Shown: positions 43,531 to 61,231 of the stretch, piece after piece | How the letters are laid out: every line of letters begins with the position of its first letter | How positions within the stretch are numbered: position 1 is the stretch's first letter | Source of the DNA: a virus | Taxonomy: Duplodnaviria; Caudoviricetes | Strand: one strand, 5' to 3' | DNA: 64,000 nt | IMG/VR virus record: IMGVR_UViG_3300043427_002668 | The notes under the pieces: model-generated | Seen by the model: the letters and a program-made list of their open reading frames with translations, nothing else | What the model was told of the DNA's origin: nothing | Database searches by the model: none | Made by a program: the position numbers and the translations under genes

Positions 43531-43535
43531 CTTTT

Positions 43536-46391: not shown

Positions 46392-46607
46392 ATGACTCTC
46401 ACTTCTAAATTCAAGAAAGACGTTCAAACCCTTCGCGGTGCAGCAAATGGTGATTTCTACCTTGATGTAAAGAATCCGAAACTCTACAAAAAGGTTCGCC
46501 GTTACTATGAAAACGAAGGTGTAGTGTTCTCGGGTGATCCTCTGGATGATTATGAAATGCTTATGGAATATGTTCTTGCCGATCTTGAATCCGTTGAAGT
46601 TGCATGA
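46392..46607 (+). CDS. conserved hypothetical
   Basis: MTLTSKFKKDVQTLRGAANG...LDVKNPKLYKKVRRYY. Confidence 0.7.
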   Translation: MTLTSKFKKDVQTLRGAANGDFYLDVKNPKLYKKVRRYYENEGVVFSGDPLDDYEMLMEYVLADLESVEVA

Positions 46608-46837
46608 CAAAAGTTCTTCTGGAACGTGAAGGATATCGCTTCGTGGAAGCAGGTATCCTTGAAATCAACGGTAAACCTGATTATCGTTTACAGAAACAAA
46701 ATTACTATACCAAACGCTGGAACGACATTTATCTTTTTGATAATGGTCTTCAATGTACTACCGCTATGGAAGACATTGAGTATGCGAAATGGTTAGATCC
46801 AGATAGAGTTCCTTGTTATGTAAGGGATGATGATTAA
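46604..46837 (+). CDS. conserved hypothetical
   Basis: GYRFVEAGILEINGKPDYRLQ; ATGA coupling. Confidence 0.7.
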   Translation: MTKVLLEREGYRFVEAGILEINGKPDYRLQKQNYYTKRWNDIYLFDNGLQCTTAMEDIEYAKWLDPDRVPCYVRDDD

Positions 46838-46884
46838 ATAGTCACGGATGGACTTTAACAGCACTGGTCGGGAGCAAACCCCTA

Positions 46885-47112
46885 ATGTCAAAAACAAGTA
46901 TCTTACGATATCTTGGTAATCTTCTTCTCATTATTGGTTATCAAACTATGTTATGGGGAGATTTTAAATATGGTTTAATGTTAAAAGTTGTTGGGGGATT
47001 ACTCACAGTACCTTTTGCAATTAAACTTAAACTTTGGGATGTGCTATTCTTATGCGCTTTCTTTGGTATCTCCGAAATATCAAAGTTATCCCAACTTTTC
47101 TTAGTTTCATAA
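46885..47112 (+). CDS. small multi-TM membrane protein
   Basis: About 3 hydrophobic segments; the stop lies within the RNA hairpin. Confidence 0.65.
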   Translation: MSKTSILRYLGNLLLIIGYQTMLWGDFKYGLMLKVVGGLLTVPFAIKLKLWDVLFLCAFFGISEISKLSQLFLVS

Positions 47113-47178
47113 AACTAAGTGGTGGAGTCAACACGACCCCTTAAAACTAAATAAATTGAGAGTTTTTTACTAATAAAA

Positions 47179-47376
47179 ATGACAGTTAAAAAATCAACAT
47201 CTTCGGATAAACCTTATATGTCCGAATACGATAAAAGTGTTGAGACTCGTCTTCAAAATCTTGAAGAAAAGTTCAGCGATTCTAGTTCAGATAATATTGA
47301 TGAAGATAGACTTTCTGCTTTAGAAGCAAAGGTTAATAATCTTATTGAGAGACTTTCTAAAAAAATGTCTTTCTGA
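47179..47376 (+). CDS. small coiled-coil hypothetical
   Basis: YMSEYDKSVETRLQNLE...RLSALEAKVNNLIE; TAAATA upstream. Confidence 0.6.
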   Translation: MTVKKSTSSDKPYMSEYDKSVETRLQNLEEKFSDSSSDNIDEDRLSALEAKVNNLIERLSKKMSF

Positions 47377-47481
47377 GTTTCCAATTTCTCTCAAGAATTG
47401 GTGGTGCGGATGGGGAATTCTTTCTCCGCCTGGTTTCCAATTTCCAGTTAAAGAATTGGTGGCGAGCCTGAATTAATTATT

Positions 47482-47515
47482 GGAGGTTGACAACAACCTC
47501 CTTTTTTTGTATCAT
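47482..47515 (+). promoter_or_regulatory. terminator/promoter cassette at the start of the glycan island
   Basis: GGAGGTTG-ACAA-CAACCTCC plus T tract; TTGACA(47487)-N17-TATCAT. Confidence 0.75.
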
Positions 47516-47541
47516 ATATAGATGGCGTTTAGTTATTTTCG

Positions 47542-48447
47542 ATGAATGTAATTGCTGGAAATTGTGCGGGAGTTTTTAGTGGATTTCTTCTGCAACTTGC
47601 ATGGATGGAAACCGCAGAAAGATCAGATGGAGAAATAAATCTTTCACTTCACACAAGAAATAAAACTCATTACCCCGGTAGCAGCTATTCAAACTATAGG
47701 TGGTTGAAGTCTTCTGAAGTAAATAATTTTGATGAGGTTTTGGAAAAAAACGTTCTTTTTGATTTTTTTGAACCAAATGAGTATATGGTAAAAGAATATC
47801 CAAAAGAGTTTACTTATTTTGAAGCTTATCCTGCAGATATAAAATCTGAACTAAAATTTTATCCAGAAGATACTCTAAAATATGATGGTAGAGGTAGTAA
47901 AAAAGAGCAGTATGTTGACCTGGAAAATATTAGCAAAACAAGAGTAGCTTTAAATCGACAGTGGAATAAGTTTAAACTTCTGGATCATTTTAATCAAAAA
48001 GCAAAAGAAGAAGAAAAACTAATAGAGGGAAAAAAAGTAATGTCTATTATGCTAAGGCATTCGGGGCATTATCAAGGAATAACCAACGTTGTAGAACATG
48101 CTATCGACTCAGTTAAGAGTAAAATAGATGATTATGATGCTGTTCTCTTAACCACAATGATTCAACCGTTTGTTGATGAGTTTAAAAGTGTTTTTGGTAA
48201 TAGGTGCATTTGTGCTGAAAGACCAAGACTTTCTACTGATATTGATTGGAAAGGTGGAAGACCTTCTAATCAGGAATCTATGACTGATGATGAGTATGCA
48301 ATTGAATATCAGAATGCCTTTCTAGATGTAATTTTATCCAGTAAAACCGATCTCATTATTGGTAGTAGTAGTAATATGTTTCTTTCTGCATTGTCTATGA
48401 ACCCAGATGTTTCATATGATCTTTTTTATTTTACTGATGGATATTGA
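47542..48447 (+). CDS. putative fucosyltransferase-like (NodZ/O-FucT-like GT-B)
   Basis: SIMLRH donor-binding-like motif; AFLDVILSSKTDLIIGSSSNMF. Confidence 0.55.
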   Translation: MNVIAGNCAGVFSGFLLQLAWMETAERSDGEINLSLHTRNKTHYPGSSYSNYRWLKSSEVNNFDEVLEKNVLFDFFEPNEYMVKEYPKEFTYFEAYPADIKSELKFYPEDTLKYDGRGSKKEQYVDLENISKTRVALNRQWNKFKLLDHFNQKAKEEEKLIEGKKVMSIMLRHSGHYQGITNVVEHAIDSVKSKIDDYDAVLLTTMIQPFVDEFKSVFGNRCICAERPRLSTDIDWKGGRPSNQESMTDDEYAIEYQNAFLDVILSSKTDLIIGSSSNMFLSALSMNPDVSYDLFYFTDGY

Positions 48448-49250
48448 TTATGAAAAAAAAGTTTAACTTAGTTGGTAATACTTTTACCCATCTTACTAAT
48501 GGTAACAAGGGATATTCCGTTCATGGAAAAGAATCCAAATATATTGAGTGGGTTCAAGATGGTGGTGATGGAACTTTTTACATCGATGATACTATTAATA
48601 ATGGGATTAATGATAAAATGAAGGGACCAAAATATCTTTGGTTGCTTGAATCTAAATTCATTAAACCTGGACTTGTAGAAAGTATTATTGAAAATCGTGA
48701 GTTAGTTGAGAATACTTATGAGACTATTTTCACTCACGATCAGAGACTTTTAAATCTTGGTGATAAGTTTAAGTGGGTTCCCGCTCAGGGATTTTGGATT
48801 AAAGAACCTAAAATTTATGAGAAATCAAAAATGATTTCAATGATCTCTTCAAACAAAAGAATGTGTGAGGGGCATATTAAAAGGTTGGAATGGGTAGAGA
48901 GGATTGGAGAACAAGTTGACCTTTATGGTCGCGGATTTAAAGAAATTGCTGATAAAGAAGAAGGATTATGTGACTATATGTTCTCGGTAGCAATTGAGAA
49001 CGGTCAGTATGAAACATACTTTACAGAAAAACTTCTTGATTGTTTCGCAACAGGAACAATTCCTGTTTATCTTGGAGCACCAGATATTGGTAGTCATTTT
49101 AATACTGATGGTATTATTGTATTGAGTGAAGAGTTTGATGTTTCTGAAGAAATCTATTATAGTAAAATGGATGCAATTCAGGACAATTTGGAGCGTGCTA
49201 AAAAGATGGAAATTTTAGAAGATTTTATTTGGGAGAATTATTATGTTTGA
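48444..49250 (+). CDS. GT10-family (alpha-1,3-fucosyltransferase-like)
   Basis: YMFSVAIEN...YFTEKLLDCFATGTIPVYLG. Confidence 0.82.
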   Translation: MIMKKKFNLVGNTFTHLTNGNKGYSVHGKESKYIEWVQDGGDGTFYIDDTINNGINDKMKGPKYLWLLESKFIKPGLVESIIENRELVENTYETIFTHDQRLLNLGDKFKWVPAQGFWIKEPKIYEKSKMISMISSNKRMCEGHIKRLEWVERIGEQVDLYGRGFKEIADKEEGLCDYMFSVAIENGQYETYFTEKLLDCFATGTIPVYLGAPDIGSHFNTDGIIVLSEEFDVSEEIYYSKMDAIQDNLERAKKMEILEDFIWENYYV

Positions 49251-49830
49251 TAAAAACAAATACTTCAAGAAGGTATATGCAAAAGAGTCTAAAAATATAC
49301 CAACTTGCGCTTTTCTGTTTAGGGATTTTGGAGTTAAACTTGGATGCAAATATTTTGTTGAAACTGGAACACATCTCGGACATGGAGTTCAGTACGCATT
49401 GGATCATGGATTTGAGTATGTTCTAAGTTGTGAGTTCATGCAGGATAGATATCAGCATTGTATGGATAGGTTTGCAAAAAATGATAATGTAAATCTTTAT
49501 CTTGGAACTTCATTAGAATGTATGCCTAAAATGCTGGAAGCAGTGAATGATAAAGCATGTTTTTGGTTAGACGCTCATGATGAGGGTGGTGGAGTTCCTA
49601 CATTTGAAGAACTTCAACTCATTAAAGATCATCCGATAAAAAATCACACAATTGTGATCGATGATATTCCAGTTTACTTTTCTGATAAGAAGGAAGAATT
49701 GGAAAATTTAATTTTTTCTATTAATAAAGATTATAAAATTGAATATGTCCCCGTATATTTTGGAATTGCTCCAGAATATACTTCTCATCGAGTTGTCGAT
49801 GATTATCAACTATTTGCATACGTGGAGTGA
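49243..49830 (+). CDS. SAM-dependent methyltransferase-like
   Basis: FVETGT.LG, FWLDAH and IVIDD. Confidence 0.65.
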   Translation: MFDKNKYFKKVYAKESKNIPTCAFLFRDFGVKLGCKYFVETGTHLGHGVQYALDHGFEYVLSCEFMQDRYQHCMDRFAKNDNVNLYLGTSLECMPKMLEAVNDKACFWLDAHDEGGGVPTFEELQLIKDHPIKNHTIVIDDIPVYFSDKKEELENLIFSINKDYKIEYVPVYFGIAPEYTSHRVVDDYQLFAYVE

Positions 49831-49834
49831 AACT

Positions 49835-50179
49835 ATGAGTAATTTCGGAGAACTGATTGATAAGTGTATTGAAGAAACAATTAATGAAGTTCTTTCTCGC
49901 AGAGAACTTCCTGATGTTGAATACATTGAAACTGACAATCTTGGGGAAGTAATTGAAAAACTTTCAATTCTTCATACTCGTATGTGGATGTTGGAAGATG
50001 CAATTCAAGAAGCAAAAACAGATGCAGAAATAGCAGAACTAAAAAAGAAAATTGACATTTGCTTTAAGGTTAAAAGACCACGTTTGGTTCAAGCTGTGAA
50101 TCTAATGGTAGATAATGCAATTTCCACGGGAAGAACTTTGAGGGAAGATTCTGTAAAACTTTATAAAGGTGTTGAATGA
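49835..50179 (+). CDS. helical hypothetical (DUF4254-like)
   Basis: LGEVIEKLSILHTRMWMLED. Confidence 0.6.
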   Translation: MSNFGELIDKCIEETINEVLSRRELPDVEYIETDNLGEVIEKLSILHTRMWMLEDAIQEAKTDAEIAELKKKIDICFKVKRPRLVQAVNLMVDNAISTGRTLREDSVKLYKGVE

Positions 50180-50901
50180 AAATTTGTTTAATTAATCAAC
50201 CAGCAGGAATTGGTGATGTATTTTTTCTGCAATATGTTGCAAGAAAGTATCTTGAAATGGGATACAAAGTTATTTGGCCGTTAAGAGAAAGTATTCTTTG
50301 GATTAAAGATTATATTACTGATATTGATTTTTGCTCTCAAAATGATAATTTTCCTGGAAAGGAATATTATGGACAAATGGGAATTATTCAATCTCCTCAA
50401 TTTGTTTATCTTGGAATGGATATGATCCATTTTTGGAAAAATGATTTTGGAATTTCTGAGTCTGAAACGTGTATGTGTATGCACGCAAAGTATCTTCAAC
50501 TCTTTCTTGATTGGACTAAATGGTCTGAAGGATTTAAATTCACACGAAACATAGAAAGAGAAAATTATCTTTATTATGATGTATTGGGTCTGAAAGATGA
50601 TTCTGAATATGTGTACGTTAATCGTTATGCAAACACTGATCTCAAGAAAAACAACATTCTTAAATTTCCAGAATTTGATCTTCCAGTTGTAGAGAACGAT
50701 ATTAATTATTGTTTATTTGACTATTGCAAAGTACTTGAAAATGCAAAAGAAATTCATACAGTACATACATCGGTTCCTTACCTGATTGATGTTCTTGATA
50801 TTAAAGCTGAGAAATATCTAATGTATCAGGGAATTCATAATGATGATGTGAAGCACATTCCATTTCTAAATACAAATCCAATTTACATTCCAAATAATTA
50901 A
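50176..50901 (+). CDS. glycosyltransferase-like hypothetical
   Basis: AGIGDVFF N-terminus; LFDYCKVLENAKEIHTVHTS C-terminus (GT-B-like). Confidence 0.55.
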   Translation: MKICLINQPAGIGDVFFLQYVARKYLEMGYKVIWPLRESILWIKDYITDIDFCSQNDNFPGKEYYGQMGIIQSPQFVYLGMDMIHFWKNDFGISESETCMCMHAKYLQLFLDWTKWSEGFKFTRNIERENYLYYDVLGLKDDSEYVYVNRYANTDLKKNNILKFPEFDLPVVENDINYCLFDYCKVLENAKEIHTVHTSVPYLIDVLDIKAEKYLMYQGIHNDDVKHIPFLNTNPIYIPNN

Positions 50902-50905
50902 AACT

Positions 50906-51244
50906 ATGTACGTAGAAGAAAGACCTTGGGGGATTTTTGAAAACTTATGTGATGAAGAGACCTATAAGGTAAAACGAATATATGTAAATCCAAATCAATC
51001 ATTTTCTCTTCAGTACCATAATAATCGTTGGGAAGATTGGATTGTGGTTCAAGGTAGTGGTATAATTAACGATGGTTTTGAAGTTAGAAATTGTATTGTT
51101 GGCGATAGGTTTCATATTCCACCAAAAAACATCCATAGAGCAACTGCTGGTCCGGAAGGATTAACTTTTATCGAAGTTCAACGTGGTGTTTGTGATGAAA
51201 ATGATATTGTAAGAATTGAAGATAACTACGGTAGAGTTGCATAA
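50906..51244 (+). CDS. cupin, type II mannose-6-phosphate isomerase C-terminal-like
   Basis: ERPWG, SLQYH..RWEDW, H...AG...FIEVQRG...ENDIVRIEDNYGR. Confidence 0.88.
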   Translation: MYVEERPWGIFENLCDEETYKVKRIYVNPNQSFSLQYHNNRWEDWIVVQGSGIINDGFEVRNCIVGDRFHIPPKNIHRATAGPEGLTFIEVQRGVCDENDIVRIEDNYGRVA

Positions 51245-51289
51245 CTTATTTTTTCATACTATAATTGCAATTAAGTATTAAGTAAAAAA

Positions 51290-52030
51290 ATGAATCGAAT
51301 TACAAATTACTCTGATCTTGAAACTCGCATTGTTTCTTGGTTAAAAGAATATGCCGAAAAATTTAATATTAAGGCATTTGTAATTGGTGTTTCTGGTGGG
51401 ATTGATTCTGCCGTTTCATCCACTCTTGCTGCTAAAACAGGTCTTCCAGTTTATGCTCTTGGAATGCCTATCCTTCAAAAGGAAGAACAGGAATCACTCT
51501 CTGATACCCATCTTGAATGGTTGCAAGCAAACTTTAGTAATGTCATCGTTCAAAAGTATGATCTCACTAAAGTGTTTGAGACCTTTAAGTTCACGATGAG
51601 AGAATTCGGTACTGATACTCATGCTCTTGCCAATACACGTTCTCGTATTCGTATGGTTACATTGTATCAAGTTGCCACTTCAGTTGGTGGTATTGTTGTT
51701 GGTACAGGAAACAAAGTTGAGGATTATGGTGTAGGATTTTATACTAAATATGGTGACGGTGGAGTTGATATTGCTCCTATCGCAGATCTCTATAAGACTG
51801 AGGTTTGGGAACTTGGTAGGCATTTTGGTGTAGATCAACGCATTATTGATGCCTCTCCTACTGATGGTCTCTGGGATGATGGAAGAACTGATGAAGATCA
51901 ACTCGGTGCTTCTTATTCTGCTTTAGAGGAAGCAATGGAACTTGGTACAGGTGATGCTGTAGAAGTTCTTAAAAAATTCAATGCTATAAACAGTCATAAA
52001 ATGAATCCTATTCCTACTTTTACTCTATGA
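51290..52030 (+). CDS. nadE: NH3-dependent NAD+ synthetase
   Basis: GVSGGIDS, NTRSRIRMVTLY, GTGNKVE, FYTKYGDG, LYKTEV and PTDGLW. Confidence 0.93.
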   Translation: MNRITNYSDLETRIVSWLKEYAEKFNIKAFVIGVSGGIDSAVSSTLAAKTGLPVYALGMPILQKEEQESLSDTHLEWLQANFSNVIVQKYDLTKVFETFKFTMREFGTDTHALANTRSRIRMVTLYQVATSVGGIVVGTGNKVEDYGVGFYTKYGDGGVDIAPIADLYKTEVWELGRHFGVDQRIIDASPTDGLWDDGRTDEDQLGASYSALEEAMELGTGDAVEVLKKFNAINSHKMNPIPTFTL

Positions 52031-52950
52031 GTGTTTGTCTTACTTTAAGTAATAAAATTTCCGATGATAGTTGGAAAAAAACTATTCCATTGATTGACGG
52101 ATTTGGAACAGAAGGAATAGGTTCCATGATGCAATATCATCTACTCCTGAGGTTTTTTACAGACCTCATCGGGGTAGATTTTACTTATCCTGGTTCTGCA
52201 AATTTTGCTCATCATTCTTACAGTGGATATTCTGAAAATGAATATATGAATTTGATTGATTCCTTTTTTAATTTTCCAAATTTAAAGAATAGTTGGGACG
52301 AAGTTTATAATATTACAGATATTAATTATGAATTATTTTCTTTGATCGAGAATCACAAAAATAGTGATAGGAAAATATTAATCAATCTTTCTAATTGTCA
52401 TAGGCAAATATCAAATATATGTCACCAAAAACTTGACGACATATTTACTAAAGATAGAATTGATCGAATTAGAGAAAAACTATCTTTTGATGGAGAAAAG
52501 TATTTTGATGATGGTGTAAATATTTGTTTGCATCTTAGAACATCAAATCCAAATGATATTCCTTCAGAGATTGCTTCTCCGTTGAGAGAATATTATGTTA
52601 GGGAACGTGAATTTTTTAGATATAAAAATCTCATTGATTTTTTAAAGAAAAATACTGAAAATCAAAAAACAACTCTTCACATTCATTCTCAAGGATTTAC
52701 GACAAATTTTGAAGAATTTTTAGAATTTAAAACTCACGATTTTAATATTCAACTTCATATTGACGATCATCCCATAAGTGATCTCTATCATATGTCAAAT
52801 TCTGATTTATTCATAATGTCTAATAGTTCATTTTCTTGGATAGCATCTCTTTTAAATAGCAATCAAAAGATAGTTAGAGATAATTTTACAAATGGACCTT
52901 TTGTGCCTAATTCATTAAAAGCAAACTACGATTATACTGAAATTATATGA
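52027..52950 (+). CDS. GT11-like glycosyltransferase
   Basis: GIGSMMQ, CLHLR and DLYHMSNSDLFIMSNSSFSW. Confidence 0.6.
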   Translation: MSVCLTLSNKISDDSWKKTIPLIDGFGTEGIGSMMQYHLLLRFFTDLIGVDFTYPGSANFAHHSYSGYSENEYMNLIDSFFNFPNLKNSWDEVYNITDINYELFSLIENHKNSDRKILINLSNCHRQISNICHQKLDDIFTKDRIDRIREKLSFDGEKYFDDGVNICLHLRTSNPNDIPSEIASPLREYYVREREFFRYKNLIDFLKKNTENQKTTLHIHSQGFTTNFEEFLEFKTHDFNIQLHIDDHPISDLYHMSNSDLFIMSNSSFSWIASLLNSNQKIVRDNFTNGPFVPNSLKANYDYTEII

Positions 52951-53729
52951 AACCTACAATTAATGAAGTTAAGTCCTTCTGGGACAATAGACCTTGTAAT
53001 GTTAGGCATTCTAAAAAAGAAGTTGGAACTAAAGAATATTTTGATGAGGTGGAAAATAAAAAATTTTTTGTTGAACCTCATATTAAATCTTTTTCCAAGT
53101 TTAATGAATGGAATGGTAAGAAGGTTTTGGAAATTGGATGTGGTTTGGCTACCGCAGGAATTAATTTTGCTAGGTATGGTGCAGATTACACTGGAGTAGA
53201 ACTTTCCGAAGAAAGTCTTGCATTGGCACAAAGAAGATTTGAAGTTTACAATCAACGTGGTGAGTTCTATCAAGGAAATGCAGAAAATCTTTCTGACTTT
53301 CTTCCGGAAGAAAAGTATCATTTGGTTTATTCTTGGGGAGTAATCCACCATACTCCACATCCTGAAAAAGTAATCAAAGAAGTTAGTAAGTATATGAGTA
53401 AGGATGGTGTATTTAAGTTGATGATGTATGCATCCGAGTCCTGGAAGAATTATATGATTAGTATTGGACTCGATCAACCAGAAGCACAATATGGATGTCC
53501 TATTGCTTATACATATACTGAAGAAGAAATTTATGATTTACTTTCAGAAGATTTTGATGTAATTTCTATAGAAAGAGATCATATTTTTCCTTATCAAATT
53601 GAACCATACAAGGAAGGAAAATATATAAAACAACCTTGGTTTGAAGTTATGCCTGATGAAATGTTTGAAATTTTAGAAAAAAAATTGGGGTGGCATTTAT
53701 TAATTACAGCGAAACTTAAAGGAGAATGA
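52947..53729 (+). CDS. class I SAM methyltransferase
   Basis: VLEIGCGLA, GVELSEESL and YSWGVIHH. Confidence 0.88.
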   Translation: MKPTINEVKSFWDNRPCNVRHSKKEVGTKEYFDEVENKKFFVEPHIKSFSKFNEWNGKKVLEIGCGLATAGINFARYGADYTGVELSEESLALAQRRFEVYNQRGEFYQGNAENLSDFLPEEKYHLVYSWGVIHHTPHPEKVIKEVSKYMSKDGVFKLMMYASESWKNYMISIGLDQPEAQYGCPIAYTYTEEEIYDLLSEDFDVISIERDHIFPYQIEPYKEGKYIKQPWFEVMPDEMFEILEKKLGWHLLITAKLKGE

Positions 53730-54898
53730 GTATGAAGATTGGAGTAATTGGAGCTGGGAGACTTGGAATTTGTTTTGCTCTTCTATGTGAAGCAGCAGGA
53801 TATGATGTTTTAGTTTCTGATATTAGGGAAGATTATGTTAATGGTCTAAATGACCGCAAGATTATTACAAATGAACCAGAAGTAGAAAACCTTCTTCGTG
53901 TTGCTAAAAACTTTAGAGCGACTACAGATAATAAAGAAGTAATTCGTGAGTGTGATTTAATTTACACACTTGTCGCAACTCCTTCACTTGAGGATGGTTC
54001 TTATGATGTTTCTGCTATTTGGAGTGTAGTAGAAGATATTAAAGAAGAAATCGAAGTAAATCCAAAGAAAAAATATTTTGTTGTTGGATGTACTACTAAT
54101 CCTGGTGACTGTGAAAACTTTAAAAAGCAACTTCCTTCCTGTGTAAGTGTCTTCTACAATCCAGAATTTATCGCACAAGGATCTATTATTAACGATCTTC
54201 GTACCGCTGATATGGTTCTTTTGGGGACAAATCCTTTTGAAGATAATGACAGAATTGTATCTGAAATTAAAAAGTTATACGATAAAATCCAGACTACTCG
54301 TGCAATCGTATGTACGATGTCAACAACCGCAGCAGAAATAACTAAGATTGCAATTAACTGTTTCCTGACGACTAAAATTAGTTACGCAAATATGCTTGGT
54401 GATGTTCTTCATCATTCTGGTTGTGGGGATGAAGTTTCTGCTGTTCTGAGTGCTGTAGGAACTGATAGTAGAATTGGCAGAAAGTATCTTGGATATGGAT
54501 TTGGTTATGGTGGTCCTTGTCTTCCAAGGGATAATAGATCCTTTGCTGCATTTGCTAAAAAGGTTGGACTGGAGTATAATTTAGGATCAGTAACTGATGA
54601 AATTAATAATCAACACGCAGGATTTATTTGTGATTATTATGAAAAAATGAATTCTGATAGAAAACCTTTCTATTTTGAATATATCACTTATAAGAAAGGA
54701 ACTGATATTCTTACCGAAAGTCAGCAATATCGTTTATGTATTGATTTACTAGATCGAGGACATACCGTTTACATTCTTAATGATAGTAGAGTTACTCCTC
54801 AAGTCTGTGATTACTTACTTGATACGTATGGGGAAAAAGTTAAATTTGTTGATGATAAAAAATACGTTACCGAATCAATTTTTATTATAAATTTATGA
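53726..54898 (+). CDS. ugd: UDP-glucose/GDP-mannose 6-dehydrogenase
   Basis: GAGRLG, NPEFIAQG, KIAINCF and GYGGPCLPRD. Confidence 0.9.
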   Translation: MSMKIGVIGAGRLGICFALLCEAAGYDVLVSDIREDYVNGLNDRKIITNEPEVENLLRVAKNFRATTDNKEVIRECDLIYTLVATPSLEDGSYDVSAIWSVVEDIKEEIEVNPKKKYFVVGCTTNPGDCENFKKQLPSCVSVFYNPEFIAQGSIINDLRTADMVLLGTNPFEDNDRIVSEIKKLYDKIQTTRAIVCTMSTTAAEITKIAINCFLTTKISYANMLGDVLHHSGCGDEVSAVLSAVGTDSRIGRKYLGYGFGYGGPCLPRDNRSFAAFAKKVGLEYNLGSVTDEINNQHAGFICDYYEKMNSDRKPFYFEYITYKKGTDILTESQQYRLCIDLLDRGHTVYILNDSRVTPQVCDYLLDTYGEKVKFVDDKKYVTESIFIINL

Positions 54899-55989
54899 CT
54901 AAGTATATAAAAATTAGTTCTATTGATCAGATAAAACCGATTCTTAATTCGATTAATACTGAAGAATATTCATTAGTAAACTACATTTGGACTGAATATG
55001 GTTTTCTTGCATTGATGTTCAATGAAATGTTTATTGATTATTTTAAATCTACGGGACCAAAAATCGGATTTTGTTTTCCGGGTCATGAAATATTTTATGA
55101 AAAACACGTAGATATTTTAGTTACTCTCGATGGTTTTATTGATACTACGAAGGCATATAAAGACAATAAAGAAACAGAATTACTTTTAAATAATTTTAAA
55201 AACATATCTGATAGAGGAATTGCTTTCTGGCATACTATTCGTAATTTTGATGAAGATGCCTATGTTTCTATGTTTGATGGGTATGTATTTAAAAATGTTT
55301 TGTATCCAATAGGAAAGGAACTGCATTGGAGTTTGGGATGGCCTATTGGTCCTGGATATAAGTATGCTGAAGGTGAAGATGGTGTTTGGTATACTCCAGA
55401 CACAGAATGGAACAGAACGGGAACGGCAAATTGGGATTTAGACTTATGGGATTCTGATTTTATAAAGGGCGAAGAACTTAATATTGAAAATTACAATTGC
55501 TTTTTTGTAAAAAATTCTTGGAAAACTAGAAGACATTCTTCAACGAATATTGAAGATCTTTTAGTTGAAAGTGAAAGTTCTGCTGACTTTGGATTTGTTG
55601 GATTTGAACTTTATAGTAAAATTGTCAAGTATCATATTGATAACAAGATAAATTTAGTTGTCATTGATGATCTGGTTGAATTTCCTCATGTTGAAAGTGA
55701 GTACATTCATTATGTGACAATGACTAATTTTCTTGATGTCAGACTTCTGATGACAGTAGCAAATAAGTCTAATAACTTTATTAGTAGTGGCACAGGTCCT
55801 CAGGATTTGGCATTATATTATTGCGATACTAATCAGATTGTTGTTACCAACAGTGATTTTATATGTCAAAAAGTGCATTTCTTTGAAAAAATGCAAAAGA
55901 TAAGAAATAGAAAACAATTTTTCTACGATATGAGATGTGATAAACTTGATGACGTGTTGGAATTTTTAAGCGAAGAAACTATCTCATAG
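54895..55989 (+). CDS. hypothetical, possibly glycosyltransferase-like
   Basis: 364-aa ORF coupled within the island; no diagnostic motif recognised. Confidence 0.65.
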   Translation: MTKYIKISSIDQIKPILNSINTEEYSLVNYIWTEYGFLALMFNEMFIDYFKSTGPKIGFCFPGHEIFYEKHVDILVTLDGFIDTTKAYKDNKETELLLNNFKNISDRGIAFWHTIRNFDEDAYVSMFDGYVFKNVLYPIGKELHWSLGWPIGPGYKYAEGEDGVWYTPDTEWNRTGTANWDLDLWDSDFIKGEELNIENYNCFFVKNSWKTRRHSSTNIEDLLVESESSADFGFVGFELYSKIVKYHIDNKINLVVIDDLVEFPHVESEYIHYVTMTNFLDVRLLMTVANKSNNFISSGTGPQDLALYYCDTNQIVVTNSDFICQKVHFFEKMQKIRNRKQFFYDMRCDKLDDVLEFLSEETIS

Positions 55990-55998
55990 GTTAAGTTT

Positions 55999-57003
55999 AT
56001 GAAAGTTGCACTTATTACAGGAATTACGGGTCAAGATGGTTCATATCTTGCGGAATTTCTTTTATCAAATGGATACCAAGTTCATGGTATTATTAGACGT
56101 TCATCATCTATTAACACGGATAGAATTGATCATATTTTTAATAAAATTACATTACACTACGGTGATCTAAATGATTCTACCAATATTATTAGAGTGATTC
56201 AGGATGTTCAACCAGATGAGATTTATAATCTTGGCGCTCAGAGTCATGTAAAAGTTTCTTTTGAAACTCCTGAATATACTGGTATGGTTGATGGTCTTGG
56301 AACTCTCCGCATTCTTGAAGCAGTTCGTCTTCTAGGAATGGAAAAGAAAACAAGAATCTATCAAGCATCTACTTCAGAAATGTTTGGTAAAGTTCAAGAG
56401 ATTCCTCAGAAAGAGACTACTCCATTTTATCCTCGTTCACCTTATGGTTGTGCCAAACTTTATGCATATTGGACTACCAAAAATTATCGAGAAGCATATG
56501 GAATATATGCCTGCTCTGGAATTCTCTTCAACCATGAATCTCCAAGAAGAGGAGAGACATTTGTAACACGTAAAATTACCCGAGGTCTCAAGGCAATGTC
56601 TGAGGGTAGGCAAACCGTTCTTAAACTTGGCAACCTGAACGCAAAACGTGACTGGGGACACGCTAAGGACTTTGTAGAAGCAATGTGGTTAATGCTCCAG
56701 CAAGATGAACCTGAGGATTATGTGATTGCAACTGGAGAACAATATTCTGTTCGTGAGTTTGTTGAAGAAGCGGCACCTTATTTTGATATGAATATTGAAT
56801 GGCAATTTACTGATGTTGGGACAGAAATTGGCGTTGATAAAAATTCTGGACTAGTAAGAGTTATTGTTGATGAAAAATATTTTAGACCTGCTGAGGTTGA
56901 TACTTTGCTAGGCGATGCTTCCAAAGCTAAAGAAAAGTTGGGTTGGAAACCAAGAATTTCTTTCAAAGAACTTGTTAAGGATATGTGTCTCAATGAAAAG
57001 TGA
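55999..57003 (+). CDS. gmd: GDP-mannose 4,6-dehydratase
   Basis: GITGQDG, AQSHV, QASTSE, YGCAK and [17 protein letters not shown]. Confidence 0.97.
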
Positions 57004-57919
57004 TTCTAGAATCTTAGTTGCTGGTGCCAACGGAATGGTTGGTTCTGCAATTGTTCGAAATCTTGAAAGTAAAGGTTACACAAATATTATGAAAGGCACC
57101 CGTCATCTTGTAGATTTTACAAATCAACAAGCAACTGATGATTTTATTGAATCTGTAAGACCTGAGTATGTTTTTTTAACTGCAGCAAAGTGCGGTGGAA
57201 TACTGGATAATATTAACAATCCGGTGAATTATTTGTTGGATAATCTAAACATTCAAAATAATGTAATTTCATCTTCTCATAAGTATGATGTTAAGAAGTT
57301 AATGTTTTTTGCTTCTTCCTGCGTTTATCCTAAAGAAAGTCCTATGCCCATAAAGGAAGAAAATCTAATGATGGGTAACTTTCAAAAAACTCACGAGTTT
57401 TATTCAATTGCTAAAGTATCTGGAATTAAACTTTGTGAGGCATATCAAAAACAATATGGATCTGACTTTATTTCTGTGAATCCTTGCAACATATATGGAA
57501 TAGAAAATAAAGTCGATTCTCCAAACGCACACGTAATGTCAAGTTTGGTCTATAGAATTTGGAAAGCAAAAAAAGATAACGTTCCTCAAGTTGAATGTTT
57601 TGGTGACGGATCTCCAAAAAGAGAGTTTTTGTATTCTGATGATCTCGCTGATGCTGCAATATTTTTAATGACTCAAAAAACAGATTCGTTTATTAATATT
57701 GGAACTGGTATTGAAACTAGTATTGTGGAGTTAGTAGATGAGATTTGCAATATTATTGAATATAGTGGTAAAATAGTATGGGATACATCAAAACCAAACG
57801 GAGCACCAAGAAGAGTTTTGGATGTTAGTAAATTGAACTCTCTAGGGTGGAAACCAAAAACTTCCTTAAGAGGAGGTATTGTAAAAATTGTTAATCATTT
57901 AAATCAGAATTATGTCTAA
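56993..57919 (+). CDS. fcl: GDP-L-fucose synthase/ColC-like epimerase-reductase
   Basis: GANGMVG, AAKCGGI, SSCVYP, YSIAK, HV and [10 protein letters not shown]. Confidence 0.9.
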
Positions 57920-59078
57920 ATCAACTTGGCCACTGATGGAAAACACGATTACGTTTTCTGATCGTTTTAAGATGGCATTGTTTCTTCTCACTAGTGACAA
58001 ACTTACTAATGGACCAAAAGTTCGTGAATTTGAAAATAAGTGGTCTGAGTGGTTAGGTGTTAAACATTCTTTATATGTTTCTAGCGGCAGCACCGCAAAT
58101 ACTTTGCTTGTTTCTGCCGTAAAGGAATATTATGGATTAAAGGATGGGGATAAAGTTCTTGTTCCATCTTGTACTTGGATGACTAATATTGCTCCTGTAA
58201 TTCAAGCAAATCTTCAACCTATTTTTTGTGATATTAATCTTAGAAATTTTTCTTTTGATATTGATGAATTAAAGTATATTGCATCCGAACATCCGGATAT
58301 TAAAGCAGTCTTCATCACACATTTGATTGGACTTTCTTCTAATGTGGAAAAGGTTCGTGAAATTTTTCCAAACGTATTGGTTATGGAAGATATATGCGAA
58401 TCACATGGTGTACGAGGGCCTGATGGAAATAAACGTGGAATAAATTCTGTAGGATCGACTTTTAGTTTTTATTTCGGACATCATATTACAACAATCGAAG
58501 GTGGTGTTGTTTGTACGAATAATACCGAACTTTATGAGTTGATGAGAATGAAGCGTAGTCATGGTATGGCAAGGGAAGCATCTCCTCATATGTTTAAAAA
58601 GTATTCCGAAGAAAATCCAGATATTGATCCAACCTTTTTGTTTATGACAGAAGGGTTTAATCTTAGAAATCATGAGGTTTGTGCTGTTCTTGGATTGTCT
58701 CAGTTGAAAAAGTTGGATAAAAACATCCAGATTCGCAAAGAAAATTTTAAGTATTGGTGGGAAAAAATTTTTAAATCCGAGTCCTATTTTATCCCAGAAT
58801 ACCAAAGGGGAAATAGTAGTTTTTGTTTTCCTATTATCACCAAAGAAAGTTCTTCTATTTCCTTGGTGAAAGAAAAATTAAAAATGAGTGGCATAGAATA
58901 TCGCCCTATCATTAGTGGAAATATTCTTCTACATCCTGCATTTAAAAATTATAAACTTTGTACCAAAAAAGAAACTCCCAATGTCCTTACTCTTCACCAA
59001 AACGGTGTGTATGTTGGTAATAGTCAGTTCGTAAACAAAGAAAGAATTGATAAATTAATTTCAATAATGGATGTATAA
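57912..59078 (+). CDS. PLP-dependent GDP-4-keto-6-deoxymannose 3-dehydratase (ColD-like)
   Basis: DegT fold; VSSGSTAN, EDICES and SFYFGHHITTIEGG (His where aminotransferases have Lys); RPIISGN. Confidence 0.8.
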   Translation: MSKSTWPLMENTITFSDRFKMALFLLTSDKLTNGPKVREFENKWSEWLGVKHSLYVSSGSTANTLLVSAVKEYYGLKDGDKVLVPSCTWMTNIAPVIQANLQPIFCDINLRNFSFDIDELKYIASEHPDIKAVFITHLIGLSSNVEKVREIFPNVLVMEDICESHGVRGPDGNKRGINSVGSTFSFYFGHHITTIEGGVVCTNNTELYELMRMKRSHGMAREASPHMFKKYSEENPDIDPTFLFMTEGFNLRNHEVCAVLGLSQLKKLDKNIQIRKENFKYWWEKIFKSESYFIPEYQRGNSSFCFPIITKESSSISLVKEKLKMSGIEYRPIISGNILLHPAFKNYKLCTKKETPNVLTLHQNGVYVGNSQFVNKERIDKLISIMDV

Positions 59079-59103
59079 TATATAAATCTGAACTAAATTA
59101 ATC

Positions 59104-60066
59104 ATGAACAAAACTATAAACTTTTTTAATGGATTTCACTGCGGTGATTTATTTTCTAGTAAAGAATTTGTCAGACAAATAACAACAGAATTAACTGGAT
59201 TCAATTTTGGATATTATCACGAAAATCATCCAAAGGTTTTATTGGATTTGAATATTCCTTGTTTGGGTCAATATAAGTTAGAACACAACGTACATAAATT
59301 TGTAGAAGAAGAGAATACTCTCAATATTAATACTTGGAGTGGAGCTTATTCTCCAGCTTGTTCTTTTGAACCTCCATATTTTCAAGTTGATGGTATTGGA
59401 ATAAGTTTGGATCTTCTTTGTCTGGAATGGGAGTTTATTTTTCAGAAAATTAATGATACTTTTGGGACTTCTTTGAAGTTAAAGGAAAAGTCTAATTATG
59501 TTCCTGAAATTAACTTTGAATGTTTTAATTTAGAAAATCATAAAAAGTTTTTGGAAGAAAGAGGAAACACCAAGAAAATATTATTTTGTAATGGATTTCC
59601 AATGTCAGGACAGTCAATTCCTGGTGATATGAAAGATATTATTTTGTATTTTGCCGAAAAGTATCCTGAGTATGATTTTATTTGTACTAAGAAATTTGAT
59701 AGTGAAATTAAAAATATATTGTTTACTGACGACATTACCGTCAAATATGATATTCCTATTCGCCTTAACATCCCTTGGAATGATAGAACAAATGGTATTT
59801 GTGATTTGAATGAAATTTCTTATTTGAGTAATTTTTGTGATCTTATAATCGGAAAGCAATCTGGTCCTTTTTGTTTTTGTGCCACAAAGGATAACTTTAT
59901 GAATAAGAATAAACATATAATTTCATTTAATAATAATCCCACTGATTCTCTTGCACATAATCTGGATGTTGAATGTGATTATTTTCTTTGCAGTGAATTT
60001 GAAAGATTTTGTAATGATACACAATACGTTATGGACATCATTGAGGAAAAAATAAATATAATTTAA
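59104..60066 (+). CDS. glycosyltransferase-like hypothetical
   Basis: HCGDLF N-terminus; DLNEISYLSNFCDLIIGKQSGP (GT9-like tail). Confidence 0.55.
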   Translation: MNKTINFFNGFHCGDLFSSKEFVRQITTELTGFNFGYYHENHPKVLLDLNIPCLGQYKLEHNVHKFVEEENTLNINTWSGAYSPACSFEPPYFQVDGIGISLDLLCLEWEFIFQKINDTFGTSLKLKEKSNYVPEINFECFNLENHKKFLEERGNTKKILFCNGFPMSGQSIPGDMKDIILYFAEKYPEYDFICTKKFDSEIKNILFTDDITVKYDIPIRLNIPWNDRTNGICDLNEISYLSNFCDLIIGKQSGPFCFCATKDNFMNKNKHIISFNNNPTDSLAHNLDVECDYFLCSEFERFCNDTQYVMDIIEEKINII

Positions 60067-60074
60067 ATGTTTTC

Positions 60075-60103
60075 TTGACATTTTTGCTTTTACATATTAC
60101 TAT
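60075..60103 (+). promoter_or_regulatory. internal sigma70 promoter
   Basis: TTGACA-N17-TACTAT. Confidence 0.7.
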
Positions 60104-60123
60104 ACATAGAGGTTTTATTTTTT

Positions 60124-61209
60124 ATGAAAATGGGTCAATATAAAAAAACTGCTCTTGTTTGCGGTGCTGGTGGATTTATTGGAAGTCATATGGTTAAAAG
60201 ACTTCGTTCGGAAGGATACTGGGTTCGTGGTGTTGATATTAAGTATCCTGAGTATTCTAAAACACAAGCAAACGAATTTATTGTTGGAGATCTGACTGAT
60301 TTTGATTTTGTTACCAGAATTATTGAATATAAAGGTGAGTCTGGTAATTTCCACAATTTGGTTCCGGAAAAATATGTGGATTCTTTTGATGAGATCTATC
60401 AGTATGCTGCTGATATGGGTGGAGCTGGATATATTTTCAGTGGAGAAAATGATTCTGAGGTAATGTATAATTCTGCTACTATCAACCTCAATATTCTAAA
60501 AGCTCAACTGAATCTTAATACTCGAAAGGAAGTTAATAAGACTAAGATTTTCTACAGTAGCAGTGCATGTATGTATCCAGAGTACGCTCAAATGGATGTA
60601 AACAATCCTGGACTAAAAGAATCGGATGCTTATCCTGCTGGACCTGATTCTGAATATGGTTGGGAAAAACTATTCTCTGAGCGACTGTACTTGGCATTTA
60701 ATCGCAATCACGAAATTCCTTGCCGTATTGCACGTTTCCATAACATCTATGGTCCTGAGAGCACTTGGGAAGGTGGTAAAGAGAAGTCTCCTGCTGCAAT
60801 GTGTCGTAAAGTGGCATATGCAGAAGATGGCGGTGAAGTTGAGATTTGGGGCGATGGAGAACAAACTCGTTCATTCTTGTATATTGATGAGTGTCTGGAA
60901 GCAACACGTCGTCTAATGGAGTCTGACTTCTTGGGACCTATTAACATTGGTTCTGAGGAAATGGTTACGATTAATCAACTAGCAGATATTGCCGCTAAAG
61001 TTGCTGGTAAGACAATCACCAAAAAGCACATTGATGGTCCTCTTGGTGTTCGTGGTCGCAATTCAAATAATGATCTGATTCGTGAAAAACTTCAATGGGA
61101 TTATGGAATGTCTCTTGAGGAAGGTATTGCCAAGACTTATGATTGGATTTCATACCAGATTGAAAAAAAGGAAAGACTTGCTAATTGGGAACCACTTCCT
61201 AACTTCTGA
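60124..61209 (+). CDS. GDP-mannose 3,5-epimerase-like (GME)
   Basis: GAGGFIG, AADMGGAG, SSACMYP, YGWEK, GGKEKSPAAMCRK and GVRGRNSNN. Confidence 0.88.
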   Translation: MKMGQYKKTALVCGAGGFIGSHMVKRLRSEGYWVRGVDIKYPEYSKTQANEFIVGDLTDFDFVTRIIEYKGESGNFHNLVPEKYVDSFDEIYQYAADMGGAGYIFSGENDSEVMYNSATINLNILKAQLNLNTRKEVNKTKIFYSSSACMYPEYAQMDVNNPGLKESDAYPAGPDSEYGWEKLFSERLYLAFNRNHEIPCRIARFHNIYGPESTWEGGKEKSPAAMCRKVAYAEDGGEVEIWGDGEQTRSFLYIDECLEATRRLMESDFLGPINIGSEEMVTINQLADIAAKVAGKTITKKHIDGPLGVRGRNSNNDLIREKLQWDYGMSLEEGIAKTYDWISYQIEKKERLANWEPLPNF

Positions 61210-61231
61210 TATTAATAGTAGAGAGTAAACT

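What the first reader, a model, noticed from the sequence alone, without database searches (positions are those of the whole stretch)
46838..47470. Structured RNA motif apparently split into modules by two inserted ORFs
Seen: a 5' module (AGTC-ACGGATG-GACT hairpin; CTGGTCGGGA at 46864), then ORF 46885-47112 whose stop lies in hairpin unit 1 (CTTAGTTT-CATA-AAACTAAG-TGGTG). A GTC/GAC hairpin follows, whose CGACC (47134) could alternatively pair with GGTCG (46866). Then comes ORF 47179-47376, whose stop abuts units 2 and 3 (GTTTCCAATTTC..GAATTGG-TGGYG, twice), separated by a GCGGA/TCCGC stem. Established: manA and wcaG RNA motifs occur in cyanophages near tRNAs and sugar-metabolism genes. From memory these modules resemble a contiguous manA-type RNA. 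Inference: the motif tolerates or captures ORFs in internal loops and sits directly ahead of the glycan island, perhaps as a sugar-nucleotide sensor or a recombination/gene-capture scaffold.
Basis: partly seen in the sequence, partly recalled or inferred. Interest (0 to 1): 0.8.

Follow-up and report, generated by a model that had tools for sequence, protein, structure and literature searches.

The report
wcaG RNA array interrupted by genes
An intact copy of a known cyanophage RNA element (wcaG) sits ahead of a sugar-modification gene island, and two more of its building blocks lie upstream, separated by two small genes that related phages lack, so this unexplained RNA is a chain of independent modules and not one compact fold.

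Summary
Units 2 and 3 plus the GCGGA/TCCGC stem are one complete, unsplit wcaG RNA (Rfam RF01761, 47373-47473, 95 bits). It is not manA: that model finds nothing anywhere in the window.

The "split" idea holds in a modified form. The 5' module (46840-46882) and unit 1 (47096-47140) are extra wcaG-type modules. In related cyanophage contigs the same modules are contiguous, or are separated by other genes. ORF1 and ORF2 are real genes lodged at the linkers between modules.

Each GUUUC unit is a small H-type pseudoknot followed by UGGYG and a connector hairpin. The 5' module is a variant head whose stem covaries. The window's unit 1 has lost its pseudoknot because ORF1's coding sequence has replaced the 5' strand.

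In 77 of 84 relatives the array ends 6-14 nt before an intrinsic terminator. In the window that terminator also carries a promoter-like site and heads a glycan gene island of at least 16 kb.

Function remains inferred. My best guess is a cis-acting, factor-binding element that controls termination.

First-stage readers of this scan noted the same theme on other DNA.

Verdict: a new variant of a known kind, of moderate interest.

The parts
46604..46837 (+). ORF0, a 77-aa conserved cyanophage gene (phrog_481). Its TAA stop lies 2 nt before the module.
   Evidence: It or a homologue is found within 300 nt upstream of the module in most relatives.
46840..46869 (+). 5' module, a variant ('type II') wcaG head: hairpin AGUC-ACGGAUG-GACU (46840-46854), linker UUAACAGCAC, then UGGUC (46865-46869).
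   Evidence: It is 97-100% identical over 34 nt in Syn1, S-RIM44, S-N03 and S-BM3 and occurs in at least 119 viral contigs. In an ORF1-selected set the stem covaries (AGUC/GACU, AGAC/GUCU, CGUC/GACG, CGAC/GUCG): 100% paired, 17 both-side changes, 0/500 shuffles. In S-BM3 and Syn1 the Rfam wcaG model takes it as P1 (49.5 and 45.1 bits).
46870..46882 (+). Connector hairpin 0 (GGG-AGCAAAC-CCC). In ORF1-bearing loci its 5' arm reads GGGAG, a likely Shine-Dalgarno 10 nt before the ORF1 ATG.
   Evidence: helix 2 is 96% paired, with GC to UA changes. The Shine-Dalgarno role is inference.
46885..47112 (+). ORF1, a 75-aa three-helix membrane protein. It is a real gene lodged between connector 0 and unit 1.
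   Evidence: phrog_2318, E 3e-20. Pairwise differences by codon position are 0.197/0.087/0.316. 191 cultured-phage records carry a homologue. AF2 gives 3 helices at pLDDT 75, with the nearest AFDB folds being short PnuC/SemiSWEET-like proteins (TM 0.8-0.88, weak E).
47096..47124 (+). Unit 1: UUUU, an 8-bp hairpin CUUAGUUU-CAUA-AAACUAAG, then UGGUG. It is a degenerate GUUUC-type unit without the pseudoknot, and it overlaps ORF1's last codons and stop.
   Evidence: Weak wcaG hit at 47055-47134 (21.6 bits). Present at the ORF1 end in 59 of 62 ORF1-selected loci. The stem covaries (UUAG/CUAA, CUAG/CUAG, UUGG/CCAA, CUAAUU/AAUUAG). The pseudoknot rule is met in only 1 of 40 ORF1-linked copies, against 6 of 6 ORF1-less copies.
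47125..47140 (+). Connector 1 (GAGUC-AACAC-GACCCC).
   Evidence: The sequence UGGUGGAGUC...GACCC is conserved in 57 distinct copies. The hairpin itself is not supported by covariation: three or more copies have GCC...GAC.
47147..47153 (+). CTAAATA, which resembles a T4-type late promoter, ahead of ORF2. It is part of the ORF2 cassette.
   Evidence: It is conserved as UAAAAACUAAAUA before ORF2 homologues. 11 of 12 copies in the window are on the + strand, but the count is not above the shuffles. The promoter role comes from my own knowledge and was not tested.
47179..47376 (+). ORF2, a 65-aa hydrophilic protein that looks like a coiled coil. It is lodged between connector 1 and the canonical wcaG RNA, and its TGA stop forms part of the 5' strand of unit 2's pseudoknot.
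   Evidence: phrog_35121, E 4e-13. It is absent at this junction in most relatives, and unrelated genes replace it in others.
47373..47473 (+). Canonical, contiguous wcaG RNA. Unit 2: PK GAG 47375-77 with CUC 47388-90, stem 47381-87 with 47395-401, UGGUG. P2: 47406-47430. Unit 3: PK UGG 47431-33 with CCA 47444-46, stem 47437-43 with 47453-59, then UGGCGAGCCUG.
   Evidence: RF01761, 95 bits, model 1-98/98. The P3 pseudoknot is already annotated in the original alignment.
47482..47515 (+). Intrinsic terminator (GGAGGUUG-ACAA-CAACCUCC plus U7) with an embedded promoter-like site (-35 TTGACA at 47487-92, -10 TATCAT at 47510-15).
   Evidence: 77 of 84 related arrays have such a hairpin starting 6-14 nt after the terminal unit, and 46 of those also have -35/-10-like hexamers.
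47542..63725 (+). Glycan and sugar-nucleotide gene island downstream: GT10-like fucosyltransferase, UDP-Glc/GDP-Man dehydrogenase, GDP-mannose 4,6-dehydratase, DegT aminotransferase, epimerase, GT11 and a methyltransferase.

Best explanation
The region is an extended, modular wcaG RNA array on the sense strand of a cyanomyovirus hyperplastic region.

The repeating module is a head, then UGGYG, then a small G.../...C connector hairpin. The head is either a GUUUC-type H-type pseudoknot or the AGUC-N7-GACU hairpin. The array always ends in a terminal pseudoknot unit with UGGCG(A/U)GC(C/A)UG and, 6-14 nt later, an intrinsic terminator.

The window has three such modules plus the terminal unit. The last two heads form an intact canonical wcaG RNA. 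The first two are separated from it and from each other by ORF1 and ORF2, which are real small genes sitting exactly at the linkers between modules.

Because each module folds on its own, genes can be gained or lost at the boundaries without destroying the others. Only unit 1 has degenerated to a plain hairpin.

The architecture, the covariation and the gene presence/absence are shown here. What follows is inferred. The array probably acts in cis as an additive binding platform for a protein, RNA polymerase or another factor that recognises the repeated UGGYG and pseudoknot. It would govern termination or read-through at the adjacent terminator, and so entry of upstream transcription into the glycan island. 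I put about 0.85 on the architecture and about 0.3 on this particular mechanism.
For: - A complete wcaG hit and a weak second hit on unit 1.
- In S-BM3, Syn1 and S-N03 the module runs straight into wcaG units, and Rfam scores that as wcaG.
- Among 93 non-redundant module-bearing loci there are forms without ORF2 (38 or more), without ORF1 (L052, L072, L110), fully contiguous (L018, L035, L056), and reduced to one unit plus terminator.
- With both ORFs removed, the window aligns module by module with the contiguous arrays at 76% identity.
- At least five unrelated gene types occupy the ORF2 junction, including GIY-YIG and HNH endonucleases.
- Pseudoknot covariation: terminal units 46/49, units of the first wcaG hairpin type 23/41, ORF1-less copies of unit 1 6/6, with 0/2000 shuffles for the first two sets.
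- Module stem covariation, 0/500 shuffles.
- Non-Watson-Crick pairs are 7 G.U and 0 A.C in 540 stem pairs, which points to RNA read from the + strand.
- 77 of 84 arrays have a terminator 6-14 nt downstream.
- Contigs from four RNA libraries carry ORF0-module-ORF1-unit 1 from relatives and join unit 1 directly to wcaG.
- Weinberg et al. 2010 had already suggested that the two UGGYG could be protein sites and noted hits that 'trash P1, P2 or P3'.
Against: - No binding factor is identified. There is no CsrA in four of these phage genomes, and NusG was found in only one of five.
- No experiment or raw-read data shows RNA ends or termination. The RNA-library contigs may contain carried-over DNA.
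- Folding energies are unremarkable: z is -1.8 for wcaG and +1.1 for the module.
- Connector 1 lacks covariation.
- The first set of loci was selected by exact match to the module, so module conservation there is by construction. The ORF1-selected set corrects this only within a clade with at least 87% ORF1 identity.
- ORF1 homologues in ACG-2014f carry a unit at their 3' end with no module upstream, and those in B3 and Syn33 carry neither. The direction of events, whether ORF capture or a motif built around ORF1, is therefore unresolved.
Confidence: 0.6

Rival explanations
1. The region is one split riboswitch aptamer. The module, unit 1 and wcaG come together through tertiary contacts or long-range pairing such as GGUCG with CGACC, loop out the ORFs, and sense a sugar nucleotide or other metabolite to control the terminator.
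For: - wcaG is a published riboswitch candidate.
- Small H-type pseudoknots are a common aptamer fold (my own knowledge).
- The module is never seen without a downstream unit.
- There is a terminator at a fixed short distance.
- The downstream genes act on sugar nucleotides.
Against: - The number of units varies from 1 to 4, and heads are interchangeable at one position.
- ORFs of 200-700 nt that are translated sit between the modules.
- The pseudoknot of unit 1 is lost in the ORF1-linked form.
- There is no covariation for GGUCG/CGACC.
- The terminator does not overlap the conserved tail.
- No ligand is known.
Confidence: 0.12
2. The conserved sequences work mainly at the DNA level. They would be recombination or homing-endonuclease target sites, analogous to PeSLs, that shuffle gene cassettes in the hyperplastic region, with no RNA function of their own.
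For: - Different genes occupy the same junction, including GIY-YIG and HNH endonuclease genes.
- An HNH ORF lies at 45746-46252 in the window.
- The 34-nt module is identical in otherwise diverged phages.
- The terminator carries a promoter like a PeSL.
Against: - Compensatory changes keep hairpins and pseudoknots intact while the sequence changes.
- There are G.U pairs but no A.C pairs.
- The elements always have the orientation of the genes.
- Indels fall in the non-repeated linkers, not between repeats.
- This rival is compatible with the best explanation as a secondary role.
Confidence: 0.1
3. Each element serves only its neighbouring gene. The module plus connector 0 would be a translational operator of ORF1, with the Shine-Dalgarno GGGAG inside the hairpin. 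Unit 1 would be a stabilising 3' hairpin of ORF1, and wcaG a 3'-UTR or processed stable RNA of ORF2. The 'array' would then be only a juxtaposition.
For: - GGGAG occurs only in ORF1-bearing connectors.
- ORF1 in ACG-2014f keeps a 3' unit without a module.
- Arrays end at terminators or just before tRNA genes, like 3'-terminal or processed RNAs.
- manA RNAs in relatives are flanked tightly by tRNAs.
Against: The same module and units occur contiguously with no gene between them, in one fixed order, always ending in the same terminal unit and terminator.
Confidence: 0.1
4. The repeated UGGYG pairs with the near-universal tRNA 3' end C72-R73-CCA. The array would then sense or sequester uncharged tRNA, or interact with tRNA-processing enzymes, in the manner of a T-box.
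For: - UGGY-G is complementary to CRCCA-3' (my own knowledge).
- Arrays lie next to phage tRNA clusters, and some run directly into a tRNA gene.
- The lead came from an earlier first-reader note.
Against: - Complementarity to the window's ten tRNAs stops after 3-5 nt. The longest run seen by inspection is 6 nt, with tRNA-Met.
- No specifier-like element was seen.
- The terminator does not overlap the UGGYG.
Confidence: 0.05

Closest known systems
wcaG RNA motif (Rfam RF01761; Weinberg et al. 2010, PMC2864571)
   Same: 47373-47473 is a full member: P1, P2 and P3, two UGGYG, the P3 pseudoknot, a cyanophage host genome, and a position ahead of exopolysaccharide-type genes.
   Different: - The window carries two further wcaG-type modules upstream, separated by genes.
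- The AGUC-N7-GACU head is not part of the published consensus. It appears only in the flanks of the original alignment, or as hits that 'trash P1'.
- A pseudoknot is also present in the first hairpin.
- The array length varies from 1 to 4 heads.
manA RNA motif (Rfam RF01745)
   Same: Both are orphan RNA motifs of T4-like cyanophages found near tRNA genes, and relatives of this phage carry both.
   Different: The manA model does not hit anywhere in the window. In relatives manA is a separate element of about 200 nt, flanked by tRNAs, about 3 kb from the array.
PeSL composite terminator/promoter cassettes of T4-type phages (PMC2839356, PMC4122927)
   Same: These are conserved regulatory sequences in hyperplastic regions that flank variable small ORFs. 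The terminator at 47482-47515 has a -35 hexamer inside the hairpin and a -10 hexamer after the U run.
   Different: The wcaG modules are structured RNAs with covariation and pseudoknots. The indels lie in the linkers and do not arise by recombination between two identical repeats. PeSL papers do not treat cyanophages.
Cis-acting processive antitermination RNAs (HK022 put; EAR/epsC RNA of Bacillus eps operons). This is a functional analogy from my own knowledge.
   Same: They are structured RNAs made of a few hairpins or pseudoknots, placed upstream of terminators and, for EAR, between genes inside a polysaccharide operon.
   Different: There is no sequence or structural homology, and no test of antitermination was made here.
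Tandem small-module riboswitches such as guanidine-II (mini-ykkC), from my own knowledge.
   Same: Both have repeated small hairpin modules with conserved short motifs and a variable linker.
   Different: The linkers here can hold whole genes, the number of modules varies, and no ligand is known.

Membership tests
wcaG RNA (RF01761), element at 47373-47473 | The covariance-model score reaches the Rfam gathering threshold (42 bits) over the full model. | tested here: met
   95 bits, model 1-98/98, E 8e-17.
wcaG RNA (RF01761), element at 47373-47473 | Three hairpins P1-P2-P3 with two UGGYG motifs directly 3' of P1 and P3. | tested here: met
   The alignment to the consensus shows UGGUG at 47402-06 and UGGCG at 47460-64.
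wcaG RNA (RF01761), element at 47373-47473 | A pseudoknot between the linker 5' of P3 and the P3 loop (SS_cons_1 of the original alignment). | tested here: met
   UGG at 47431-33 pairs with CCA at 47444-46. In relatives 46 of 49 units obey the rule, with four pair types and 0/2000 shuffles.
wcaG RNA (RF01761), element at 47373-47473 | Genomic context: a T4-like cyanophage or marine sequence, upstream of exopolysaccharide or high-light genes. | tested here: met
   The nearest records are Kyanoviridae. GT10, GDP-mannose dehydratase, an epimerase and GT11 lie downstream.
wcaG RNA (RF01761), upstream module plus unit 1 (46840-47140) | The covariance-model score reaches the gathering threshold. | tested here: not met
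   In the window only unit 1 plus coding sequence aligns, at 21.6 bits and E 0.25. Natural ORF1-less homologues score 32.6-49.5 bits, so some are above and some below 42. I therefore call them wcaG-type modules, not a second wcaG member.
manA RNA (RF01745) | A hit of the covariance model. | tested here: not met
   No hit at E<=10 in 46400-47900 or at E<=1 in the whole window. The model does find manA elsewhere in relatives L016 and L052.
Riboswitch | Direct, selective binding of a small ligand that changes the expression platform. | not testable with these tools
   No ligand is known. Only the constant terminator spacing was shown.
PeSL-type composite terminator/promoter | An intrinsic-terminator stem-loop combined with sigma-70-type early promoter hexamers. 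| tested here: met
   Terminator at 47482-47501 plus T7, with TTGACA-17-TATCAT matching 11 of 12 positions. 46 of 77 related terminators share the layout. This is a pattern match only.
PeSL-type composite terminator/promoter | Mediates indels by recombination between flanking copies. | not tested
   The indels seen at module boundaries do not lie between two terminator/promoter copies.

The most novel reading that the evidence does not exclude
wcaG arrays are a phage-specific, modular RNA system. Each pseudoknot-UGGYG module would independently recruit a factor (RNA polymerase, a tRNA 3' end or an unknown protein) to override the adjacent terminator. Their invariant DNA would at the same time serve as the landing pad where homing endonucleases and small gene cassettes are inserted. 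One element would then both regulate and assemble the glycan/host-takeover region, as a kind of RNA-punctuated gene-cassette array.
Probability: 0.12. Interest if true: 0.8.

Novelty: new variant of a known kind. Interest (0 to 1): 0.5.

Why it matters
wcaG has been an orphan riboswitch candidate since 2010.

Three results argue against a single fixed aptamer. The RNA is a chain of autonomous pseudoknot modules of variable number. It has an undescribed alternative head. It tolerates whole genes between its modules.

This points experiments toward multivalent factor binding or control of termination. It also supplies natural minimal constructs (module, one unit and terminator, about 96 nt) and extended ones for probing.

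In addition, it identifies a recurrent hot spot of gene gain and loss, including homing endonucleases, at the head of cyanophage glycan islands.

Tried and rejected
- **CsrA-type protein on the ACGGAUG loop.** GGA is not invariant in diverged modules (UCGGUAU, CCGUGAU). No CsrA (PF02599) was found in Syn1, S-N03, S-BM3 or ACG-2014f, and the control hits did not include Synechococcus elongatus.
- **A phage NusG-like antiterminator as partner.** PF02357 was found only in S-N03 among 5 phage genomes.
- **tRNA 3'-end complementarity.** No more than 3-6 nt.
- **Folding energies.** Not informative on either strand: z is +1.1 for the module and -1.8 for unit 1 and for wcaG.
- **ORF1 fold against PDB.** No match with E<=0.001, only generic three-helix membrane subunits. 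AFDB gave only a lead.
- **In-silico ORF deletion followed by Rfam cmsearch.** The tools search only held sequence, so this could not be run. I used natural ORF-less relatives and a spliced alignment instead.
- **Whole-genome search of the window's own genome.** No genome is held.
- **Bacterial and archaeal genomes.** No match to the module pattern.
- **RNA-library contigs.** They give no cover of 47167-47370 (the ORF2 region) or of the region beyond 47473. This is no evidence either way, and the runs are contigs of relatives at 85-99% likeness.
- **CTAAATA.** The count is not above the shuffles.
- **Pairing of the terminal tail with the module linker or the terminator arm.** By eye I found no consistent complementarity. 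This was not tested formally.

Full report
**What is there**

The window is a T4-like cyanomyovirus. All similar records are Kyanoviridae. It has a tRNA cluster at 42.7-46.3 kb.

Rfam finds one complete, contiguous wcaG RNA (RF01761) at 47373-47473: 95 bits against a gathering score of 42, covering model positions 1-98 of 98.

A second, sub-threshold wcaG alignment (21.6 bits, E 0.25) places unit 1 on the model's 3' hairpin.

manA (RF01745) gives nothing at E<=10 in the region or at E<=1 in the whole window. The same model does detect separate manA elements in relatives. The recalled resemblance to manA is therefore wrong.

**The 5' module**

The 34 nt at 46840-46873 are 97-100% identical in Syn1, S-RIM44, S-N03 and S-BM3, phages whose flanking genes are otherwise diverged. 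In all of these the module runs, with no ORF, into a small G/C hairpin and then into GUUUC-stem-GUGGYG units. Rfam scores module plus unit as wcaG in S-BM3 (49.5 bits) and Syn1 (45.1 bits), using the AGUC/GACU hairpin in place of P1.

Weinberg's original alignment contains the module only in the flanks, and carries the note that some hits 'trash P1, P2 or P3'.

A scan of 185,579 prokaryote genomes returned none.

**Comparative architecture**

I examined 93 non-redundant module-bearing loci.

- The commonest layout is ORF0 - module - ORF1 - unit 1 - wcaG, with no ORF2 (38 or more loci).
- L052, L072 and L110 have module - unit 1 - ORF2 - wcaG, with no ORF1.
- L018, L035 and L056 have module - unit 1 - wcaG fully contiguous.
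- Many have only module - one terminal unit - terminator.
- A few have a second, degenerate module copy.

With both ORFs removed in silico, the window aligns module by module with the contiguous arrays, at 76% identity over 184 columns.

The junction that holds ORF2 in the window carries unrelated genes in relatives:
- an MTPYQLRF... family of about 68 aa
- a small hydrophobic protein
- a 66-aa acidic protein
- a GIY-YIG endonuclease
- an HNH endonuclease

In a set of 62 non-redundant loci retrieved through ORF1, and so unbiased for the module, 59 have unit 1 at the ORF1 end. The distance from unit 1 to wcaG is about 50 nt in 42 loci and 200-300 nt in 6.

The ORFs lie at linkers between a connector hairpin and the next head, not in internal loops.

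**Structure of the modules**

Every GUUUC unit obeys one rule. The 3 nt before UUU pair with the first 3 nt of the hairpin loop. This gives an H-type pseudoknot with loop 1 = UUU and an A-rich loop 3, followed at once by UGGYG. The counts are (units listed):

| Unit set | Units obeying the rule | Pair types | Shuffles reaching the observed count |
|---|---|---|---|
| Terminal units | 46 of 49 | 4 (GAG/CUC, UGG/CCA, CUG/CAG, CAG/CUG) | 0 of 2000 |
| First-hairpin units (fixed register) | 23 of 41 | 6 | 0 of 2000 |
| ORF1-less copies of unit 1 | 6 of 6 | 5 | 3 of 2000 |
| ORF1-linked copies of unit 1, including the window's | 1 of 40 | 1 (ACU/AGU) | 1837 of 2000 |

The pseudoknot of the second wcaG hairpin is already annotated in the 2010 alignment. 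The one in the first hairpin is not.

In the ORF1-linked copies the 5' strand is ORF1's coding sequence (QLFLVS), and the unit has become an 8-bp hairpin with a 4-nt loop. That hairpin still covaries.

The module hairpin covaries in the ORF1-selected set: AGUC/GACU, AGAC/GUCU, CGUC/GACG, CGAC/GUCG and UGAC/GUCG. It is 100% paired, with 17 both-side changes and 0 of 500 shuffles reaching the observed value.

At unit 1's position some relatives carry an AGUC-type head instead of a GUUUC-type head (L093 and L030). The two heads are therefore interchangeable.

Stem mismatches are 7 G.U and 0 A.C in 540 pairs, which fits RNA read from the + strand. Connector 1 (GGAGUC...GACCC) is conserved in sequence but lacks compensatory support. 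Folding energies alone are unremarkable.

**The two ORFs are genes**

- ORF1 matches phrog_2318 (E 3e-20), and ORF2 matches phrog_35121 (E 4e-13).
- ORF1 shows the coding pattern of substitutions by codon position, 0.197/0.087/0.316.
- ORF1 has homologues in 191 cultured cyanophage records.
- In ACG-2014f, ORF0 and ORF1 abut with no module between them. ORF1 still ends in a full pseudoknot unit followed by a terminator and a nucleotide-sugar epimerase gene.
- In B3 and Syn33 the ORF1 homologue has neither a module nor a unit.

Whether ORF1 was captured by the array, or the array grew around ORF1, is therefore unresolved.

ORF1 is predicted to be a three-helix membrane protein (pLDDT 75). Its nearest predicted folds are short proteins annotated PnuC, SemiSWEET or YgjV (TM 0.8-0.88, weak E-values). 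This is a lead only, and PDB gave nothing significant.

ORF2 carries its own upstream CTAAATA box, which resembles a T4-type late promoter. That reading is from my own knowledge. The box is strand-biased in the window but not enriched.

**Surroundings**

In 77 of 84 arrays, a terminator-like hairpin starts 6-14 nt (median 8) after the terminal UGGCGNGCNUG. Of these, 46 have a -35-like hexamer inside the hairpin and a -10-like hexamer after the U run. The window has both, at 47482-47515. Most of the exceptions have a G+C hairpin followed by a tRNA gene. This composite layout is like the PeSL cassettes of other T4-type phages.

Downstream lies a sugar-nucleotide and glycosyltransferase island of at least 16 kb.

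Contigs from four RNA libraries, from relatives at 85-99% likeness, span ORF0 - module - ORF1 - unit 1 and join unit 1 directly to wcaG. This shows that the ORF2-less form is present in RNA preparations. It does not prove transcription.

**How it most likely works**

*Shown.* The region is an array of independently folding modules of one family, in a fixed order and orientation. It ends at a terminator, and genes are present or absent at the module boundaries.

*Inferred.* The array acts in cis on the transcript. Its repeated pseudoknot-UGGYG modules would form an additive platform for a factor that decides termination or read-through into the glycan island. The functional analogues would be put or EAR RNAs. 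Weinberg's suggestion that a protein binds the UGGYG pair points the same way. I give this mechanism about 0.3.

The rivals are a ligand-sensing riboswitch, a purely DNA-level recombination or homing target, gene-by-gene UTR elements, and tRNA 3'-end pairing. All are weaker but none is excluded. The DNA-level role may well coexist with an RNA role, given the endonuclease genes at the junction.

**Novelty**

The wcaG RNA itself is already known. New relative to the literature I could read are:
- the alternative AGUC head with covariation
- the pseudoknot in the first hairpin
- the variable-length array grammar
- whole genes lodged between the modules

First-stage readers of this scan noted the same theme on other genomes. 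Those notes are unchecked and are not independent support.

Noticed in passing
L052:1446-1801 and L016:8193-8477: In relatives the manA RNA is packed between tRNA genes with gaps of 0-2 nt. This suggests it is released as a stable RNA by tRNA processing and is not a 5'-UTR element.
   Followed up: no
window 45746-46252 (+): A 168-aa ORF has HNH-like Cys/His motifs (CHNCHHILH). It ends inside the start of tRNA-Met (46243) and is probably a free-standing homing endonuclease in the tRNA cluster.
   Followed up: no
L062, L195 and L030, between unit 1 and wcaG: GIY-YIG (182-187 aa) and HNH (144 aa) endonuclease genes are inserted at the junction that holds ORF2 in the window.
   Followed up: partly
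window 43458-43531 (+): ARAGORN calls a tRNA-His with anticodon ATG that the Rfam tRNA model does not report. It may be a false or unusual tRNA.
   Followed up: no
L095:3577-3818 (-): A related viral contig carries a cyanobacterial-type (permuted) tmRNA, 122.7 bits, within its tRNA cluster.
   Followed up: no
L001:1534-1623 (Syn1_206) and L003:1489-1578 (SBM3_00091): GenBank annotates 29-aa 'hypothetical proteins' directly over the module/wcaG RNA. These are probably spurious CDS calls. Conversely, the ORF1 homologue in the ACG-2014f records is left unannotated.
   Followed up: partly
window 46885-47112 (+): The ORF1 model resembles short PnuC/SemiSWEET/YgjV-type three-helix-bundle transporter subunits (AFDB TM 0.8-0.88, E 4e-3 to 0.6). 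This is a possible transport link to the glycan genes.
   Followed up: partly
window 51290-52030 (+): An NAD-synthase-family (PF02540) protein lies inside the glycan island. It may be an amidotransferase or adenylating enzyme for sugar modification and not NAD synthase proper.
   Followed up: no
linkers before GUUUC units in many loci, e.g. L029, L053, L066, L095: ORF-less junctions often read AUGAGUUUC (a start and a stop overlapping as AUGA), and the 3-nt pseudoknot strand is often part of a stop codon (UGAG, UAGG, UAAG). This could be a relic of excised ORFs or could be part of the motif.
   Followed up: no
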